DNA of 63,029 bases, the filler included, from Licmophora abbreviata (Eukaryota): assembly GCA_900291995.1 (NCBI GenBank). It is 11 parts of 11 records of this genome, joined end to end, with 100 filler letters (N's around TTAATTAATTAA, not from the genome) between each part and the next. Parts side by side here need not be neighbours in the genome. Positions count along the whole stretch, not along the records: positions 57,071 to 59,843 come from OLMU01001615.1; 10 more parts are not named here. One strand, written 5' to 3'. Positions 1,295 to 59,943 of this stretch are shown one piece after another. The first letter of the stretch is position 1. Each line of letters begins with the position of its first letter. Position numbers and translations under genes: made by a program. The notes beneath the pieces were generated by a model. That model was not told the DNA's origin and did no database searches. It worked only from the letters and a program-made list of their open reading frames with translations.

Positions 1295-2443
1295 ATGAAT
1301 GTGCTTGTAGACGAAAAGAACAATGAAAACGAGGGCGCACCGGCGACAAACGCGGATCCCGAAGATCCGCCAATCCCCGAAAGTCACTCCGTAGACCGCT
1401 CCGCACGCAGAATTTCCGGGTCTCCCACTTCACAACAACATGGAAATCTTTGCGTCTCGGAGATGGAAGATAATGGCGACAACGACTCTGTCGCGGCTCC
1501 TGTCTCGGAAATCCCTCAAGACGACGAGGAGAGTGACTACGAATACGAAGATGACGACGATGCGGCTTTTGGGAGTTTTCTCGTCACGGAGCAGCCGCCT
1601 ATAGCGGCTCCCGTGGCTGGCTCGTCTCCGACATCGCCGGCCCGAATAGTCGAAGAGGACGGCGCCGCGACGGCCACTGCAGCAGAGGAAGACATGGGAG
1701 AAACGACAGCTCCTAAGAAAGCCAAGTGGAAGGAACCATCGAAGCAGGCGGTGAGCATGTCTCTACGAGCGGAAAAAGAGACCTCGGGCGGCAAGCGCCG
1801 GCTCGCGCAAGACTTGTACAAGATCATGACGACCGATACGGAAGAGGCCGGTTTCAGCCTTGAACCTTCATCAGAGGACTCCATGGACAAGTGGACAATC
1901 AAGCTTTTCGCCTTTGACAACGACTCCAACCTTTACAAGGACATGCTTGTCCTGGGACTCGAACACATTGAGCTCGAAATGTCCTTTCCGGATCAGTATC
2001 CATTCGAGCCTCCTTTTGTCCGTGTTGTTCGACCTCGCTTCAAGCGTCAAACTGGCTTCGTTATGAACGGAGCACTCTGTATGGAACTCTTGACGAAGGA
2101 AGGATGGAACCCGGTCAATGACATTGAGAGTGTCATTGTGTCTGTTCGATCTCTTCTTGTGGTCGGGGACGGACGTCTCGCTGCGGCGGTCGACATGCCT
2201 TCGAAGAAGCGCGCGGCTATCTTGGCGGCCGCCACCGGCACGGATGAGAAAGAAGGCGCCAAGCGCGAACGAAGTTCCTCGACGGAGATTGCTTCCGGCG
2301 ACGTGAAGCCTCCATCCAAGGTGTCCAAGGCGGGGGGCGGAGAGTACAGTGTGCAGGAGGCGCAGTCGGCCTACTCGCATCTTTCCAGCTATCACAAGGA
2401 GAAGGGGTGGGATCAATCGGGATGGTGGGCTCGCAAGGGATAA
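1295..2443 (+). CDS. Ubiquitin-conjugating enzyme E2, UBE2Q-like, with acidic disordered N-terminus
   Basis: YPFEPPFVRVVRPRF..GFVMNGALCMELLTKEGW: catalytic Cys present and no HPN motif, as in UBE2Q. First in-frame ATG at 1295. Confidence 0.9.
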   Translation: MNVLVDEKNNENEGAPATNADPEDPPIPESHSVDRSARRISGSPTSQQHGNLCVSEMEDNGDNDSVAAPVSEIPQDDEESDYEYEDDDDAAFGSFLVTEQPPIAAPVAGSSPTSPARIVEEDGAATATAAEEDMGETTAPKKAKWKEPSKQAVSMSLRAEKETSGGKRRLAQDLYKIMTTDTEEAGFSLEPSSEDSMDKWTIKLFAFDNDSNLYKDMLVLGLEHIELEMSFPDQYPFEPPFVRVVRPRFKRQTGFVMNGALCMELLTKEGWNPVNDIESVIVSVRSLLVVGDGRLAAAVDMPSKKRAAILAAATGTDEKEGAKRERSSSTEIASGDVKPPSKVSKAGGGEYSVQEAQSAYSHLSSYHKEKGWDQSGWWARKG

Positions 2444-3114
2444 TTGAAATCACCAACTACACTGTACCATCAGATGCGGCACACAGCGCCGACAGACTCG
2501 CGCAAGGAGTAGTGACGGTCGCCAGTTCGACCATTATCGGTAGGTAGTCGTCCAGCATGCGGGTAATATATATATACAGCGACGATTTACCTCGGACACA
2601 CAGATAGGCACTTTATTTTTGTACTGCGTACTTCTCGCCACAACACGCTGCTGCGTTGCGAACCGAGTGCCCGGAGAGTGATACATTCGTCCTGGGATTC
2701 GAAGTGACACTTCTGCGATCTCCGCGAACGGGATCGTGCGGTTTCCCTTCAATCCCGATTTCTCTACTCCTCAGTAGCCTATGTGATGCAGCACGACTAT
2801 ATTGGCCTGTGTTGTGGTACCTAAACAATGTCGCTATCATTGTAGACTCACTCTTGTATCGTACTACTACGTCGGGCCGGCCCGGACGTCAAGCCTCAGT
2901 GTGGCCGCCGCGCGCCCGAGAACGGTGCTGATCGCGCGTCAACATCATCCTCGCTTCTCGCTTCGCAATGTCGCGTCGTCAGTGTCAAAGTGTATTCAAG
3001 TATTGGAAGACCTTGCCGTTGCATATCGACGACCCCATTGTGCAATCGCCAGTTTTCTACCGCTCGAAAGCTTCTATCTAAGCGTCGTGTCGAAAAAAGA
3101 AAGACATCAGCGTC

Positions 3115-3442
3115 ATGACGAAACGAATTTTGCCTGGCGCCGGTGATGATGACGATGATCGACCGCGGCATAGCGGTGACAAGCGAGCGCGTGGCGACGA
3201 AAGTGCACCGAACAAGAACATTGAATCCAGGGCAAACGCAGAAGAAGAAGGGAAGGATGGAAATAACGACACGAAACATCCCAAGTGGCTATTACCGCCC
3301 ATGGAAGTACGGCATCCACGAATCGGCGCCAACTATCAAGCCATCTTGCCTCCTGTGGTGGTTGGGGAAGTGGGCGAAGATGGCGCGACTGCTGTTGCTG
3401 CGGCGAATGGTGGGAGCGTTCCAGTGTCGCAAGAAACAGAAG
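3115..3442 (+). CDS. Small protein with ELM2-like motif, 3' end lost in gap
   Basis: HPRIGANYQAILP resembles the ELM2 start motif (RIGxxYQAxLP); ORF runs into N spacer. Confidence 0.5.
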
Positions 3443-55721: not shown

Positions 55722-57112
55722 TTAATAATTTACTTGCGCATCGTCTATTGGCGTTGAAAGCAAGCTAGGAAATGGCTCGTCCTGAAAAATATCATCCAAG
55801 CACTTGTATCCGCACCCCGCATCGTCCCAATAGCACTCTGTCTTTTCCGTTCTGCCAACATATGTTCCATCAGATGAACAAACATCGGGAGGTGGCGAGC
55901 ACTCTCTGTTGGCTTTTTCCTTTGCTTGTCGGAACTTGGCGAGCGCATCTTCAAATAAGGGTCTCCCAATTGTATCGATCGAGCGATCCAAGCTTGCATT
56001 TACTGCTGCGTAAAGCATTTCATCCCCGAGGTTCAGATTTTTCCATTCTTCGCTGTCCACAAAAGATTGAACAACTGGAGAAAGGACGTGCTTGGGAGTA
56101 GTCATGCAAATCTTTTTGTTCGTTGCTACGTATCCACCGCTTTGCTTTGCAGATTGAGCAAGAACGTCGCTTGGGCGAAGACCCAGTAAAAGCTGAAGCA
56201 GTACCAGAGACTCGTCCATCCTCTCCACAAGACCAATGAAATCAAGTTCATCCAGAGCTTTCTGCACCAGTTCCGCTATTCCGGCCTTGTCCAGTTTCAT
56301 CAGTTTGCGTTTTGCGTGACTATCAGAGAGCTTGACCAACTGGGAGTTACCAGATCTCTTTACATAATCGACGACATTCACATCTGTCGGAATAGTGAGA
56401 TTTTGAATGTCCACAAAGAAGAAGAAGAACTCACTAAGTATCCTCTTGGTTGGATTCTTGAGAAACGTAAAGAGGAACGATTGTTCGTGGTTTCTGGTGT
56501 CATATCGATCTGTTTTCTTGGACCAAAGGTGTGCAAGTCTAACGCGACAGATAGGCCTTGCTGTTATTGTTCCGTTTGGATCTGAAATAGTTGGTTTTGT
56601 GAGATTCGCGATAGCATGACTGATTCGAGCGGCTACCCCTGCGAGCGTGGATGACGCGGCCTTTTCTATTTTGATGAATAGTATGCCTTCTGACGACGGC
56701 TGTCGTTGGATGAAAGCGTTCATGGGATCCCAATCGGGGCCTCGGTGATCGATAATGCACGGGGGTGTGCGGTTCATCTGGTTCCACGGAATATAGGTAC
56801 GGGGGGAAAGCAGATCGGACACTTGAAATTCACGAGGCATGGGTGAAACTCCAGTTGATACAGAAGTCTGATTCTGTAGGCTAGTCAGAGAAGATGAGTT
56901 CATCGGTAGGTCAGCCAACAAAGTCTTCCTATGCGCATGATCGACGTCGACCTTGGGCGTAATCGTCAGTNNNNNNNNNNNNNNNNNNNNNNNNNNNNNN
57001 NNNNNNNNNNNNNNTTAATTAATTAANNNNNNNNNNNNNNNNNNNNNNNNNNNNNNNNNNNNNNNNNNNNCAAGGGATTTAGGAAGCTCACTTGGAGGAA
57101 ACTTGATTTCAT
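55722..57112 (-). CDS. Galactose-3-O-sulfotransferase-like protein (likely spans gap; ATG probably at 57112)
   Basis: ILFIKIEKAASST, FTFLKNPTKRILSEF, FIGLVERMDESLVLL and CYWDDAGCGYKC. Frame is open to the gap at 56970, and CCACCATG lies on the far side. Confidence 0.85.
56971..57070. other. Artificial scaffold gap spacer
   Basis: N44-TTAATTAATTAA-N44. Confidence 0.98.
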
Positions 57113-57597
57113 GGTGGAAGGGAGCGTTGACGTATGCGTGGTATCGATGGATCTTGTTGGCTTGTGCTGGTCGGAACCCACCTATAATAACTATGCTTTC
57201 CGTTGTGTGTCGGGGTTATCGGTACCGCGGCATGTCGCCGGCGGGGTCATCATCATCGCGCGTTTCGCAAATTTTTCGAAAAAGATGACTTGAATGAATC
57301 GACTCACTCGACTCGATCAAAATCATTTTCGCGCGGTTTCGTGTCAATACATCGCGCGATCGGATGAAACCAGAGAGATTAGGCTCCGTATTAGTATCGT
57401 CATACCGGGTATCATACCAGGTACCAGTCAAATCGAGATGAGCCAATCTCGAGGAACGCTACTACGACTTTCAACTTGCCGCAGCAATGAGATAACTGAC
57501 ACGAGATGCAGATGGGGTCAGTGCTGCTGCTGGAAGGTTGCCTGGGAATCAATCTAGCATGATAGTACAATGAATTACGGGGTCGCCTCATAGTTAG

Positions 57598-59304
57598 CTA
57601 GTTCTTCTTGGGCTTAGATCCCTTTCGCCGCAAATCACGCAGTGCACTCTTGCTGCGAGCCAAGTCGCACTTTTCTTGTAACTGTTTGTTACTTTGAAAC
57701 TGATGAATCAACTGCGCATTCGTTTGTGGATTCCCACCCCACACATACCACATCGAACAAAAGGGCGACGACTTTTTGTGCACATCACTCACTTTTTTCT
57801 CACGAAAGTGACTCGGAGGAATATAAACATAGCGCTTCTTGGGGACAAGATAGAAGGGTTGGATGTGCTTCGTCGCACCACGGTAGTAATCCTTCTTGTG
57901 CACCCAGGTGGGCATGAGCAAGAACCAAGCGCGATTATGCTTGCCGAACGCATGCGAAGTGATATGTTTCATTAATTTTGGAATGTGATCGTCACTGTAG
58001 GGTGGATTCGTCACCAGCACATGGAAGCGACAGGGGGCACCATTGGCACCATGCGACCACACTCGATAGCAGTCTTCCTTTTCATTGTAGACATCCCCAA
58101 AGCCCAAAGTTGCAAGATTGCGTTTTACAGCTCCATTGCAGTAGTATGGATCGTAGACGACAAAGCCACCAGAAGAGCTTTGTTTTTGGTGTTGGCTTTG
58201 GATAGTTTCAATTAATGGAGCGATGTCGTGGTAGGCTTCGAGTGGCGTTTCGCAATGATCGTCCGCATCGACCGGAAAAGGAAAGGATGGTGCCGCCGAG
58301 TCTAGAAGCACGGTTCAGAAGAGAGAGGTAAGATACGCAAGGTTAGTTTCAGCACCATCACGCAACAGTATAGCGCGGCTGTCCGGGAGGCTATTGAGAA
58401 CGTCTCAGTTGGAATTGAAAATAATACAGACGTCACACCCGCCTCCTGGGAATGGATGAATCGAGAGGGTGAATCACATTGGCATTTTGCCGAGTAGACC
58501 CCCCAGTCGATTGTTTCTTCCACTCTTTCTGGCATGATATTTGACCGACTCCCGTCATGGAGCAAAAAGGACAAGAGAGTCGGCTTCGATACATGCTGGT
58601 TCCTCTTTTCTAGAGACGAGTGATGAGCTGATCGTACCTTCTTGGGGAGGTTCCTCTTGCAATGCGTCGACATTGTTCTTCCACTCAATGTCTTGTGCTT
58701 CGTCGTTGTTGTTATTGCTGTTGTTGGTATTTTTAATCAAAGTACCCACACGAATCAAATCTCCATTGTCGGTACGTTCCATCCCCGAGTACACATTTCC
58801 TCCCACCGTGTCCACCAGAACCATGACTTGTTCATTCTTTCGTTGCGGATGGGGCACCATGCGTCCCTCCAGTGGCACGGCGGATGACGACAACGAGTCG
58901 TCCTGACTACTATCCTCGGTCTTCTTGTGACGTTTCGATGATTCTTGTCTCTCCTTATCTGCCGCTTGCTCTTTACTAGAACTGAATTCAGCTGGTGACA
59001 TAGCGATCGACTTTCGTTTTCCCGGCCCTTGTAGTAGCAGTGTAGACATTCGGACAAGACCACCATCACCACCATGGACCTCGATGTTGTTGTCATCACC
59101 AGCGGCGGAAGGGAAAACAGAGAACGCTTCCGTTCGCCTCAAGAAATCGTCGTCGAGATGAATCGGTTTAACAGAGGCGGCTTGTTGGAATGCATTCGCC
59201 CATGGTGAAGACGCCGAAGATGATGAACCGAGTTCTGATTCTGTCTCCATGGTGATTGGCTTATTGCGATTCCGCCGCCGCTTTCGATCCTTTTTCTTGG
59301 TCAT
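57598..59304 (-). CDS. NPPY-type N6-adenine methyltransferase-like protein with basic termini
   Basis: Exons 59304-58638 and 58301-57598 (phase-1 GTACGA..CTAG intron, 336 nt, CTAAC branch point). DDHCETP, YDPYYCNG (motif I-like), VLVTNPPYS (motif IV), FLLMP. Confidence 0.75.
58377..58598 (-). ncRNA. Intronic H/ACA box snoRNA, predicted double guide for LSU rRNA sites equivalent to yeast Psi2865 and Psi2923
   Basis: Hairpin 1 (GCAUG/CAUGC, CCGACUCUC/GGGAGUCGG), H-like box AGAAAG 58530-58525, inserted hairpin, hairpin 3 (CCAGGAGGC/GCCUCCCGG, GACGUCU/AGACGUU), ACA at 58382-58380. Both pockets lie 14 nt from their box. Confidence 0.8.
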
Positions 59305-59358
59305 TCTTATTATTACTAGGCTGAGGTGGCCAATGTCGGGGATGAAAGGTCTGCGACG

Positions 59359-59843
59359 TCATATGCGGTAAAAAATATCCTCATTGTCGTCGGCGTTTAT
59401 CGAAAAGCCCATCAAACTGAAAATTCGCAAGATGTTGAATGTGTGGACAGAACGTCGGCGTTCAAACCGATGGCCGGCCAGACTACGGCTTTTTTTGCAA
59501 TTCACCTGAGGAGTTGTCACAGGAGGTTCTTCCAGTACCGATTTGATATCTATTAGCAGTGCGTTGCTTTTAAGCAGCAAAGCGGCGTTGTCGTTTTCGA
59601 CCTTGTACATCTTCTCCAAGTTCGACGCGATCACCTTTACGTGCTCCCATTGCCTTTCCGTGTCAATCACGCCGAGCAGGTTGCTGCTCGTCGAATTAGT
59701 TGCTTCATCTAGCTTGGATGCGACGGGGTTATAGTCCTTCGATGGAGTGTTTCCGCTCGATCCGCAAACCACTCCGAGTTTCGAAGCAGGCACGGTCAAC
59801 ACCTCGCTAGCGCGAAGTGCAATGGCCATCAGAAACGACCAGC
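59359..59843 (-). CDS. C-terminal fragment of hypothetical protein (5' lost in gap)
   Basis: Open frame of >150 codons running into the gap; no recognised motif. Confidence 0.4.
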
Positions 59844-59943
59844 NNNNNNNNNNNNNNNNNNNNNNNNNNNNNNNNNNNNNNNNNNNNTTAATTAATTAAN
59901 NNNNNNNNNNNNNNNNNNNNNNNNNNNNNNNNNNNNNNNNNNN
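59844..59943. other. Artificial scaffold gap spacer
   Basis: N44-TTAATTAATTAA-N44. Confidence 0.98.

What the first reader, a model, noticed from the sequence alone, without database searches (positions are those of the whole stretch)
58377..58598. Unannotated three-hairpin H/ACA snoRNA in an intron, predicted to guide two peptidyl-transferase-centre pseudouridines
Seen: this intron (58302-58637) is 336 nt, while the other introns here are about 74-192 nt. On the minus strand it folds as hairpin - AGAAAG box - long inserted hairpin (GAGUGGA/UCCAUUC, AAUCGA/UCGAUU, GGGGGU/ACCCUC) - hairpin - ACA + 3 nt. Pocket 1 is UAUCGAAG (58591-58584) + UCAAA (58544-58540), exactly 14 nt before the H-like box. 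Pocket 2 is GGGUG (58440-58436) + CAAU (58396-58393), exactly 14 nt before ACA. Known (conserved LSU sequence recalled from memory): pocket 1 pairs with UUUGA-Psi-N-CUUCGAUG (yeast Psi2865, guided by snR46) and pocket 2 with AUUG-Psi-U-CACCC (A-loop, yeast Psi2923, guided by snR10). Inference: one RNA combines guides that yeast keeps on two separate snoRNAs, and it has an extra domain and a non-canonical H box (ANANNG).
Basis: partly seen in the sequence, partly recalled or inferred. Interest (0 to 1): 0.9.

Follow-up and report, generated by a model that had tools for sequence, protein, structure and literature searches.

The report
Intronic diatom H/ACA snoRNA, two guides
An intron of a diatom gene carries a previously uncatalogued small nucleolar RNA, conserved in related diatoms, that is built to direct two pseudouridine marks in the catalytic centre of the ribosome and has an extra small hairpin of unknown role.

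Summary

The two target uridines lie 58 nt apart, the same spacing as yeast Psi2865 (snR46) and Psi2923 (snR10).

Eight of 26 metagenomic orthologues of the host gene carry the same RNA in the same intron. All 22 guide bases are invariant, while the stems covary: 10 of 16 pairs in the 3' hairpin show compensatory changes. Both boxes sit exactly 14 nt from the pockets.

The H box is canonical in 5 of 8 copies and ends in G in 3, including this one. The middle hairpin is not a guide domain. It is a lineage-variable hinge insertion.

It carries a small YA-AAA-UG triloop hairpin that is present once in all 8 copies, in the hinge or in the apex of the 3' hairpin.

Verdict: a real H/ACA snoRNA of a family absent from Rfam. 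Expression, pseudouridylation and this species' own 28S could not be tested.

The parts
58302..58637 (-). Host-gene intron (GT...AG, 336 nt, frame preserved) that contains the RNA
   Evidence: Sequence read. Exon frames. Orthologous loci carry the RNA at the same place, just upstream of the same exon.
58377..58598 (-). Predicted H/ACA snoRNA, 222 nt (true ends not determined)
   Evidence: Fold z -3.52. Homologues in 8 loci. The covariance model of the 3' hairpin hits only this place in the window, 88.1 bits, E 1.3e-24.
58532..58596 (-). 5' hairpin: lower stem GCAUG/CAUGC, pseudouridylation pocket 1, 10-bp upper stem
   Evidence: MFE. Alignment A1 is 98.1% paired against 18-36% when the 3' partners are slid, with 3 of 13 pairs changed on both sides.
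58584..58591 (-). Pocket 1, 5' guide strand UAUCGAAG; pairs with CUUCGAUG just 3' of the target U-N in LSU rRNA (last pair G-U)
   Evidence: Invariant in 8 of 8 homologues. The best LSU target is 14 bp at the same site in 5 of 5 LSU segments scanned.
58540..58544 (-). Pocket 1, 3' guide strand UCAAA; pairs with UUUGA just 5' of the target U; first base 14 nt before the H-like box
   Evidence: Invariant in 8 of 8. Distance 14. LSU context.
58525..58530 (-). H-like box AGAAAG (ANANNG)
   Evidence: Same alignment columns as AUAUUA, AUAGUA, AGAAUA, AGAGAA and AUAUCA in 5 homologues, and AGAAAG and AGAGUG in 2.
58450..58525 (-). Middle hairpin inserted in the hinge; no pseudouridylation pocket; lineage-variable
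   Evidence: MFE. A closed hinge hairpin is also present in L036, L044 and L049. It is absent in L041, L042, L045 and L061, and only a 3-bp remnant remains in L040. All 3 differences within the RNA in a near-identical marine contig fall here, and the fold is kept.
58481..58491 (-). Conserved accessory triloop hairpin GGCA-AAA-UGCC (family motif YA-AAA-UG) at the tip of the middle hairpin
   Evidence: Occurs once in each of 8 of 8 homologues, against a background of 0.024 per 200 nt. 88.1% paired against 24-43% slid, with 4 of 6 pairs changed on both sides.
58383..58449 (-). 3' hairpin: 9-bp lower stem, pocket 2, 7-bp upper stem
   Evidence: Alignment A2 is 91.4% paired against 31-50% slid. 10 of 16 pairs changed on both sides. 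0 of 500 shuffles reach the observed values.
58436..58440 (-). Pocket 2, 5' guide strand GGGUG; pairs with CACCC 3' of the target U-U
   Evidence: Invariant in 8 of 8. LSU context.
58393..58396 (-). Pocket 2, 3' guide strand CAAU; pairs with AUUG 5' of the target U; first base 14 nt before ACA
   Evidence: Invariant in 8 of 8. Distance 14 in all 8.
58380..58382 (-). ACA box; the 3-nt tail GCC is 58379-58377
   Evidence: The same column reads ACA in 5 of the 8 aligned copies (window, L036, L040, L041, L061), AUA in L044 and L049, and AAA in L045. L042 is identical to L041 over the RNA and was left out of the alignments.
57598..58301 (-). Downstream exon of the host gene (to the stop codon); NPPY-motif protein conserved in diatoms
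   Evidence: Translation. No Pfam family. The named relatives are, apart from one row labelled Alexandrium tamarense, diatoms at 50-60% identity.
58638..59304 (-). Upstream exon of the host gene (start codon putative)
   Evidence: Open frame. The start was placed at the first ATG after the upstream stop and was not otherwise tested.

Best explanation
This is a box H/ACA small nucleolar RNA gene carried in the single intron of a diatom protein gene. It would be released from the spliced intron by exonucleolytic trimming and assembled with the Cbf5/dyskerin pseudouridine synthase complex. That step is inferred from how intronic H/ACA snoRNAs are made elsewhere.

The internal loop of each flanking hairpin pairs on both sides of one uridine of LSU rRNA. 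This leaves the uridine and its 3' neighbour unpaired at the base of the upper stem, 14 nt from the H-like or ACA box. That is the geometry that presents a uridine to the synthase.

- Pocket 1 (5+8 bp, 9 bp on the 5'-strand side with a further G-U pair) selects the U in ...UUUGA-U-C-CUUCGAUG....
- Pocket 2 (4+5 bp) selects the U in ...AUUG-U-U-CACCC... of the A-loop.

These correspond to yeast 25S Psi2865 (guided by snR46) and Psi2923 (guided by snR10).

The long middle hairpin is an insertion in the hinge and does not guide. Its tip, a YA-AAA-UG triloop hairpin, is under selection in the whole family. It most likely serves as a protein-binding or architectural element needed once per RNA (inferred).

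Shown: the fold, the conservation, the covariation and the complementarity to eukaryotic LSU rRNA. Inferred: expression, RNP assembly and the two modifications.
For: 1. Fold: MFE -78.1 kcal/mol, z -3.52, 0 of 200 shuffles fold as well.

2. Targets.
- Both loci put through Rfam are eukaryotic LSU rRNA: L009 at 502 bits and L028 at 1077 bits.
- The other 33 loci share the same flanks by eye.
- The gap between the two halves is 44 nt in 34 of 35 loci and 42 nt in 1.
- The two target Us are therefore 58 nt apart in the 34 loci with the 44-nt gap, which equals 2923 minus 2865 in the yeast tables (tables of PMC8307265 and PMC5699541).
- In L028 the two Us lie 530 and 472 nt from the LSU 3' end as delimited by cmscan. 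With a recalled 25S length of 3396, that is within 1 nt of 2865 and 2923.

3. Chance. The strict target motifs occur 0 times in the 63-kb window on both strands. The expectation for the pocket 2 motif is 0.12.

4. Conservation.
- 8 of 26 metagenomic orthologues of the host exon (50-64% protein identity) hold the RNA just upstream of that exon.
- A covariance model of the 3' hairpin finds only these 8 plus the window in 170,110 bases.
- 13 of 13 pocket 1 guide bases and 9 of 9 pocket 2 guide bases are invariant in 8 of 8 aligned sequences. Mean column identity is 63-67%.

5. Covariation.
- 3' hairpin: 10 of 16 pairs changed on both sides, 91.4% of cells paired against 31-50% slid, 0 of 500 shuffles as high.
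- 5' hairpin: 98.1% paired against 18-36% slid.

6. Boxes. The H position is canonical ANANNA in 5 of 8. The 3' box is ACA, AUA or AAA. Both are always 14 nt from the guide.

7. Guide length. Pocket 2's 9 bp exceeds the 8-bp minimum reported in the abstract of PMC6049503.

8. Pocket 1's site is the single best target, 14 bp against 11 or fewer for any other site, in 5 of 5 LSU segments scanned.
Against: - No Rfam family matches. There were 0 hits at gathering score in the whole window and no snoRNA family at E up to 10 around the intron.
- The window's H box ends in G.
- Pocket 2 has only 9 bp. 1 and 2 extra bases separate its guide strands from the upper stem. In the MFE it is partly closed.
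- Under G-U-permissive scoring with several registers, pocket 2's site is not the top hit in the LSU segments. Such 9-bp matches are common in background sequence: 166 in 126 kb. Its assignment therefore rests on invariance, the 14-nt rule and the match to a known site.
- The 35 LSU loci were selected by the pattern itself, so they cannot show how universal the target is.
- This species' own rDNA was not available.
- Only about the 3' 60% of LSU was scanned for rival targets. SSU, 5.8S and snRNAs were not scanned.
- 18 of 26 orthologous loci lack the RNA. Of the 11 of these looked at, 9 have an open frame running through the site and so have no intron there, and 2 have too little upstream DNA. 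The other 7 were covered only by the motif scan and the covariance model.
Confidence: 0.85

Rival explanations
1. It is a genuine H/ACA RNA, but only the 5' pocket guides the predicted rRNA site. The 3' pocket would be an orphan or act on another RNA or another rRNA position, or the RNA's main role would be as a pre-rRNA folding or processing chaperone and not in modification.
For: Pocket 2 pairs with only 4+5 bases and is not the best-scoring LSU site under permissive scoring. SSU, 5.8S, the 5' part of LSU and snRNAs were not scanned. The review text found describes yeast snR10 as dual-function. The bases flanking the pocket 2 guides (U on the 5' strand, CU and A on the 3' strand) are also invariant without a predicted partner.
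Against: GGGUG and CAAU are invariant in 8 of 8 and sit exactly 14 nt from the 3' box in all copies. The all-Watson-Crick 9-bp site is present in 5 of 5 LSU segments scanned. It lies 58 nt after pocket 1's site, matching a pseudouridine listed for yeast and marked as shared with human. The strict motif is expected only 0.12 times per 126 kb.
Confidence: 0.1
2. It is a conserved structured intron element that serves the host gene, for example in splicing control or transcript stability, and only resembles an H/ACA RNA.
For: It is always found in the same intron of the same gene. There is no expression evidence for a free RNA. No Rfam match.
Against: The most conserved parts are the single-stranded pocket strands and the boxes, while the stems covary freely. 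That is the signature of a trans-acting guide. Both pockets match adjacent functional sites of LSU rRNA at the canonical distance. Many orthologues do without the intron altogether, so the host gene does not need the element.
Confidence: 0.04
3. It is a chance fold with chance complementarity.
For: Bipartite complementarity of 9 bp is common in random sequence.
Against: 0 of 200 shuffles fold as well. There are eight homologues with invariant guides and compensatory stem changes. Pocket 1's 14-bp match is unique.
Confidence: 0.01

Closest known systems
Saccharomyces cerevisiae snR46 (H/ACA snoRNA guiding 25S Psi2865)
   Same: The window's 5' pocket is predicted to select the equivalent uridine of the peptidyl-transferase-centre region. 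The site assignment comes from the tables seen, the spacing and the position.
   Different: No detectable sequence or structure-model similarity: no Rfam snoRNA family matches at E up to 10. Here the guide shares one RNA with the A-loop guide. The RNA is intronic.
Saccharomyces cerevisiae snR10 (H/ACA snoRNA guiding 25S Psi2923, also acting in pre-rRNA processing)
   Same: The window's 3' pocket is predicted to select the equivalent A-loop uridine, directly after the U-G that are 2'-O-methylated in yeast (tables). Both are H/ACA RNAs that have something beyond plain guide hairpins.
   Different: No model match. Whether the diatom RNA has any processing role is unknown. Its extra element is a small triloop hairpin and not a second function of a pocket.
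Human SNORA16 and SNORA21 (names and targets recalled, not checked in any call)
   Same: As recalled, these are the human guides for the two equivalent 28S positions. They are intron-encoded, like this RNA.
   Different: As recalled, they are two separate RNAs with other partner pockets. No Rfam family matched here.
H/ACA RNAs with accessory elements: the CAB box in terminal loops of scaRNAs, and the internal hairpin of snR30/U17 (general knowledge; the snR30 review PMC7601244 was seen only in the listing)
   Same: A short conserved element in a loop or extra hairpin, outside the guide pockets and required in addition to the H and ACA boxes, is a known design.
   Different: The motif here (YA-AAA-UG, a 3-nt all-A loop on a covarying stem) is not the CAB consensus as I recall it. 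It occurs once per RNA, and its place shifts between the hinge and the apex of the 3' hairpin. No function is known.

Membership tests
Box H/ACA snoRNA (class) | Hairpin-hinge-hairpin-tail secondary structure | tested here: met
   MFE. The same architecture appears in the MFE folds of the 8 homologues. Covariation supports both hairpins. The window copy has an extra hairpin inserted in the hinge.
Box H/ACA snoRNA (class) | H box ANANNA in the hinge, directly after the 5' hairpin | tested here: inconclusive
   The window has AGAAAG, which matches 5 of 6 positions with G at position 6. The same alignment columns read a canonical ANANNA in 5 of 8 family members and ANANNG in 3 (window, L040, L049). 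In each of those 3 an A follows. Whether the synthase complex accepts the G variant cannot be tested here.
Box H/ACA snoRNA (class) | ACA (ANA) box after the 3' hairpin, 3 nt from the mature 3' end | tested here: inconclusive
   ACA is present at 58382-58380, immediately after the lower stem. Among the 8 aligned copies the column reads ACA in 5, AUA in 2 and AAA in 1. The mature 3' end is unknown because no RNA data are available.
Box H/ACA snoRNA (class) | Internal-loop pocket with bipartite complementarity flanking a target U, which lies 14-16 nt upstream of the H or ACA box | tested here: met
   Pocket 1 pairs 5+8 (9) bp and pocket 2 pairs 4+5 bp with eukaryotic LSU rRNA. Both are at distance 14. 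The 8-bp minimum comes from the abstract of PMC6049503.
Box H/ACA snoRNA (class) | Guide strands conserved while stems covary among homologues | tested here: met
   22 of 22 guide bases are invariant in 8 of 8. 10 of 16 pairs in the 3' hairpin and 3 of 13 pairs in the 5' hairpin are changed on both sides.
Box H/ACA snoRNA (class) | Stable RNA bound by Cbf5/dyskerin, Nop10, Gar1 and Nhp2; nucleolar | not testable with these tools
   No RNA run holds the stretch. No genome is held for the window.
Rfam families for snR10/SNORA21 and snR46/SNORA16 | Match to the family covariance model | tested here: not met
   0 matches at gathering score in the window. At E up to 10 on 58250-58700 the only match is an unrelated lncRNA fragment on the other strand. 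I therefore do not file the RNA in these families. It shares their predicted targets, not demonstrable descent.
Rfam families for snR10/SNORA21 and snR46/SNORA16 | Same rRNA target site | tested here: met
   This is met by prediction only. The evidence is the 58-nt spacing, the positions 530 and 472 nt from the LSU 3' end in L028, and the tables.

The most novel reading that the evidence does not exclude
The YA-AAA-UG triloop hairpin is a previously undescribed accessory module of H/ACA RNAs in diatoms. It would be a recognition site for a lineage-specific protein, or a docking element of the RNP, comparable in logic to the CAB box. It is needed once per RNA but is free to sit either in a hinge insertion or at the apex of the 3' hairpin. 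The G-ending H box would then be tolerated because the module adds binding energy or positioning.
Probability: 0.25. Interest if true: 0.6.

Novelty: new member of a known kind. Interest (0 to 1): 0.45.

Why it matters
Diatoms have almost no curated snoRNA annotation. My searches of the held paper library and the passages of PMC4247016 turned up no diatom H/ACA catalogue. Rfam has no matching family.

This locus gives a well-supported H/ACA family with eight aligned members. It makes two concrete, testable predictions: pseudouridines at two conserved peptidyl-transferase-centre positions of the diatom LSU rRNA.

It also provides a covariance model seed for annotating other diatom genomes. It shows natural variation at H-box position 6 and at the middle base of the ACA box within one family. 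And it contains a small conserved hairpin whose position moves, which is a simple handle for asking what else an H/ACA RNP needs.

In itself, a guide for conserved sites is expected in any eukaryote, so the core finding is solid rather than surprising.

Tried and rejected
- **Rfam.** No family matched at gathering score for the whole window or at E up to 10 around the intron. Two multi-locus Rfam calls failed internally, so I ran L009 and L028 singly.
- **Whole genome.** None is held for the window, so this species' rDNA could not be read.
- **Full rDNA unit.** The genome search on the records behind L035 and L013 gave no usable answer three times. SSU, 5.8S and the 5' part of LSU were therefore not scanned for rival targets.
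- **Sequencing runs.** No RNA holder is listed. Only 2 marine-metagenome DNA runs hold part of the stretch.
- **Laying the runs.** This gave one 266-nt near-identical contig over 58313-58577, with 3 substitutions and 1 insertion. That is too few differences for covariation. Three of them lie in the middle hairpin and one lies downstream of the ACA box. The guide hairpins are unchanged over the part covered.
- **Viral contigs.** 0 matches for the LSU target pattern and 0 for a family-specific snoRNA pattern.
- **Earlier findings of this scan.** Nothing by place, by sequence or by words.
- **Middle hairpin as a third guide.** Rejected. Its internal loops are 1-4 nt and it is missing in half of the family.
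- **AAAAUG loop as an antisense element for the LSU flanks.** Rejected. Its complement is not adjacent to either target, and only the 3-nt loop and two closing pairs are conserved.
- **A second YAAAAUG hairpin at about 51336 (minus strand).** It lies in what reads as coding sequence and is taken as chance.
- **Host protein.** No Pfam family. The protein atlas gave only unnamed clusters and weak methyltransferase leads.
Full report
**What is in the sequence**

On the minus strand, a GT...AG intron runs from 58637 to 58302. It is 336 nt long and the reading frame continues across it.

The stretch 58598-58377 (222 nt as RNA) folds with an MFE of -78.1 kcal/mol. Dinucleotide shuffles average -60.6 (sd 5.0), which gives z -3.52, and 0 of 200 shuffles fold as well.

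The fold has these parts, in RNA positions:
- A 5' hairpin with lower stem GCAUG/CAUGC, an internal loop of 7+7 nt and a 10-bp upper stem.
- AGAAAG at 69-74.
- A closed middle hairpin at 74-149.
- A 3' hairpin at 150-216.
- ACA at 217-219, followed by GCC.

The first base of each 3' guide strand lies 14 nt before its box.

The window is not one contig. It is 11 pieces joined by N44-TTAATTAATTAA-N44 spacers, and the piece with the finding is 57071-59843. No whole genome is held for it.

**Do the pockets match ribosomal RNA?**

I wrote the expected target using only the pocket strands. For each pocket this was the reverse complement of the 3' strand, then T, then N, then the reverse complement of the 5' strand. 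The two halves were joined by a gap of 30-60 nt. I then scanned the collection of prokaryote assemblies.

- In 34 of them the gap is 44 nt, and in one it is 42 nt. The R position is G in 35 of 35.
- The helix between the two sites differs and covaries among the loci, so they come from varied organisms.
- Two loci were put through Rfam, and both are eukaryotic LSU rRNA. L009 scores 502 bits. L028 scores 1077 bits over model positions 2362-3401 and has a 5S gene downstream.
- The other 33 loci share the same flanks by eye. They look like eukaryotic rDNA contamination in prokaryote assemblies.
- The same pattern found nothing in viral contigs.

The two predicted target uridines are 58 nt apart in the 34 loci with the 44-nt gap. 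The modification tables of two reviews list yeast 25S Psi2865 (snR46) and Psi2923 (snR10). They list the latter directly after Um2921 and Gm2922 (table text of PMC8307265, and of PMC5699541). That is also a spacing of 58.

In L028 the two uridines lie 530 and 472 nt before the LSU 3' end as delimited by cmscan. With a 25S length of 3396, which I recall and did not check, both fall within 1 nt of 2865 and 2923.

**Chance**

- The strict motifs occur 0 times on either strand of the window. The pocket 2 motif is expected 0.12 times per window.
- I scored every U of five 3-kb LSU segments against both pockets. Pocket 1 has one outstanding site in 5 of 5 segments: 14 bp, made of 5+9 with two G-U pairs. 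The next best site has 11 bp or fewer.
- Pocket 2 is weaker. Its 4+5 Watson-Crick site is present in 5 of 5 segments. But when G-U pairs and three registers per strand are allowed, other sites score 10-11 bp. Such 9-bp matches are also frequent in background sequence, with 166 in 126 kb.
- Complementarity alone therefore does not single out the pocket 2 target.
- Nine base pairs is above the 8-bp minimum reported for H/ACA guides (abstract of PMC6049503).
- The 35 LSU loci were selected by the pattern, so they do not measure how universal the sites are. Only about the 3' 60% of LSU was scanned.

**Relatives**

The downstream host exon (233 aa) has no Pfam family. It carries an NPPY motif. Apart from one row labelled Alexandrium tamarense, its named relatives are diatoms at 50-60% identity: Thalassiosira, Skeletonema, Stephanodiscus, Cyclostephanos, Cyclotella, Nitzschia, Detonula and Eucampia.

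A scan of metagenome contigs with this exon returned 26 loci at 41-64% identity.

- Eight of them carry the same RNA just upstream of the exon: L036, L040, L041, L042, L044, L045, L049 and L061. L042 is identical to L041 over the RNA.
- A covariance model of the 3' hairpin finds these eight plus the window, and nothing else in 170,110 bases. E-values run from 1e-19 to 1e-24.
- Of the 18 loci without the RNA, I looked at 11. Nine have an open frame of 127 or more codons running through the site, so they have no intron there. Two have too little upstream DNA.
- The other 7 belong to the group at 41-43% identity. They were covered only by the motif scan and the model.

**What is conserved**

In the alignments of eight sequences, mean column identity is 63-67%.

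- 5' hairpin: the invariant blocks are GCATGTATCGAAGCCG and GGTCAAA.
- 3' hairpin: the invariant blocks are CGGGTGTG and a block containing CTCAATAG.
- So all 13 pocket 1 guide bases and all 9 pocket 2 guide bases are invariant.

The stems vary and compensate:
- 3' hairpin: 91.4% of cells are paired, against 31-50% when the 3' partners are slid. 10 of 16 pairs are changed on both sides. 0 of 500 shuffles reach the observed values.
- 5' hairpin: 98.1% paired against 18-36% slid. 3 of 13 pairs are changed on both sides. 2 of 500 shuffles reach the score. Its lower stem and the first pairs of its upper stem hardly vary.

The H position reads AUAUUA, AUAGUA, AGAAUA, AGAGAA or AUAUCA in five members. 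It reads AGAAAG, AGAAAG and AGAGUG in three (window, L040, L049), and each of these is followed by A. Among the eight aligned copies the 3' box reads ACA in five, AUA in two and AAA in one. Both boxes keep the 14-nt distance in all members.

In four relatives the pocket 1 3' strand is longer (UCAAAAA). It then pairs with seven bases of the U-rich LSU flank.

This pattern of invariant single-stranded pockets and boxes on covarying stems is what a trans-acting H/ACA guide should show.

**The middle hairpin**

A closed hairpin in the hinge is present in the window, L036, L044 and L049. L040 has only a short remnant. L041, L042, L061 and L045 have a plain short hinge. The middle hairpin has no internal loop large enough for a pocket.

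So 'three-hairpin' describes this copy, not the family, and there are two guide units and not three.

A near-identical marine-metagenome contig covers 58313-58577 and differs at four places. Three lie in the middle hairpin and one lies downstream of the ACA box. The middle hairpin's fold is kept, at -28.7 against -29.9 kcal/mol.

**A conserved small hairpin that moves**

Each of the eight RNAs contains the heptamer YAAAAUG exactly once. The background in the same loci and the window is 0.024 per 200 nt.

- It forms a 3-nt AAA loop closed by A-U and Y-G on a stem that covaries.
- 88.1% of cells are paired, against 24-43% slid. 4 of 6 pairs are changed on both sides. 0 of 500 shuffles reach the covariation score.
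- In the window, L036, L044 and L049 it is the tip of the hinge hairpin. In L040 it lies in the short hinge.
- In L041, L042, L061 and L045 it lies inside the apical loop of the 3' hairpin.
- Its complement is not next to either LSU target. With only the loop and two closing pairs conserved, an antisense role is unlikely.
- I take it to be a protein-binding or architectural element required once per RNA. This is inference.
- I know of no described H/ACA element with this motif, and I made no literature search for it.

**Comparison with what is known**

The RNA works like a standard two-pocket H/ACA snoRNA. Its predicted targets are those of yeast snR46 and snR10. As I recall, the human guides for the equivalent sites are SNORA16 and SNORA21.

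No Rfam model matches, so I do not file it in those families.

Regrouping of guides among snoRNAs between lineages is common, so the combination in one RNA is not remarkable.

My searches of the held paper library found no catalogue of diatom H/ACA snoRNAs:
- terms snoRNA, diatom, ACA box.
- terms Phaeodactylum, snoRNA, pseudouridylation.
- terms snoRNA, Thalassiosira pseudonana, small RNA.
- passages of PMC4247016.

Supplements were not opened.

**Verdict**

This is a real, conserved, previously uncatalogued intronic H/ACA snoRNA. My confidence in that is about 0.85.

Pocket 1's target is well supported. Pocket 2's target is probable. It rests on invariance, geometry and agreement with a known site.

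Not tested here:
- Expression of the RNA (no RNA holder is listed).
- Its association with the synthase complex.
- The two modifications.
- This species' own 28S sequence.

Noticed in passing
window 3443-59943 (ten spacers, e.g. 56971-57070 and 59844-59943): The window is 11 pieces joined by N44-TTAATTAATTAA-N44 spacers (a stop codon in all six frames). It is therefore a concatenated draft or binned assembly and not one contig. Neighbouring 'genes' across a spacer need not be linked. The finding's piece is only 57071-59843.
   Followed up: partly
window 58481-58491 (-); L036:326-346, L040:1575-1595, L041:1695-1715, L044:2792-2812, L045:1697-1717, L049:1487-1507, L061:666-686: A YA-AAA-UG triloop hairpin is present once in every family member on a covarying stem. 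Its place differs: the hinge in five copies and the apex of the 3' hairpin in L041, L042, L045 and L061. Its function is unknown.
   Followed up: partly
window 57598-59304 (-): The host gene encodes a protein of about 455 aa that is conserved in diatoms. It has an NPPY motif (adenine-N6-methyltransferase-like) but no Pfam family. Protein-atlas neighbours are unnamed eukaryotic and viral clusters, a few with methylase domains.
   Followed up: partly
L037, L038, L039, L043, L048, L050, L051, L053, L055: Orthologues of the host gene in these loci read straight through the position of the snoRNA intron. The intron, and with it this copy of the RNA, is therefore present in some lineages and absent in others. 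Some of these contigs may be transcripts, which I could not tell.
   Followed up: partly
L001-L035 (genome contigs): At least 35 contigs filed under bacterial or archaeal assemblies and MAGs carry eukaryotic LSU rRNA. L028 also carries a 5S gene. They are probably contamination or mis-binning in those assemblies.
   Followed up: partly
window 58313-58577: A 266-nt contig of a marine-metagenome run (X1) matches with 3 substitutions and 1 inserted base. The same or a very close organism therefore occurs in that sample. The differences fall outside both guide hairpins.
   Followed up: yes
L041:1553-1659, L045:1560-1667, L061:526-631: In these relatives the upper part of the 5' hairpin is about 35 nt longer than in the window and forms an additional extended stem. 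The size of the apical domain is therefore free to vary in both hairpins.
   Followed up: no
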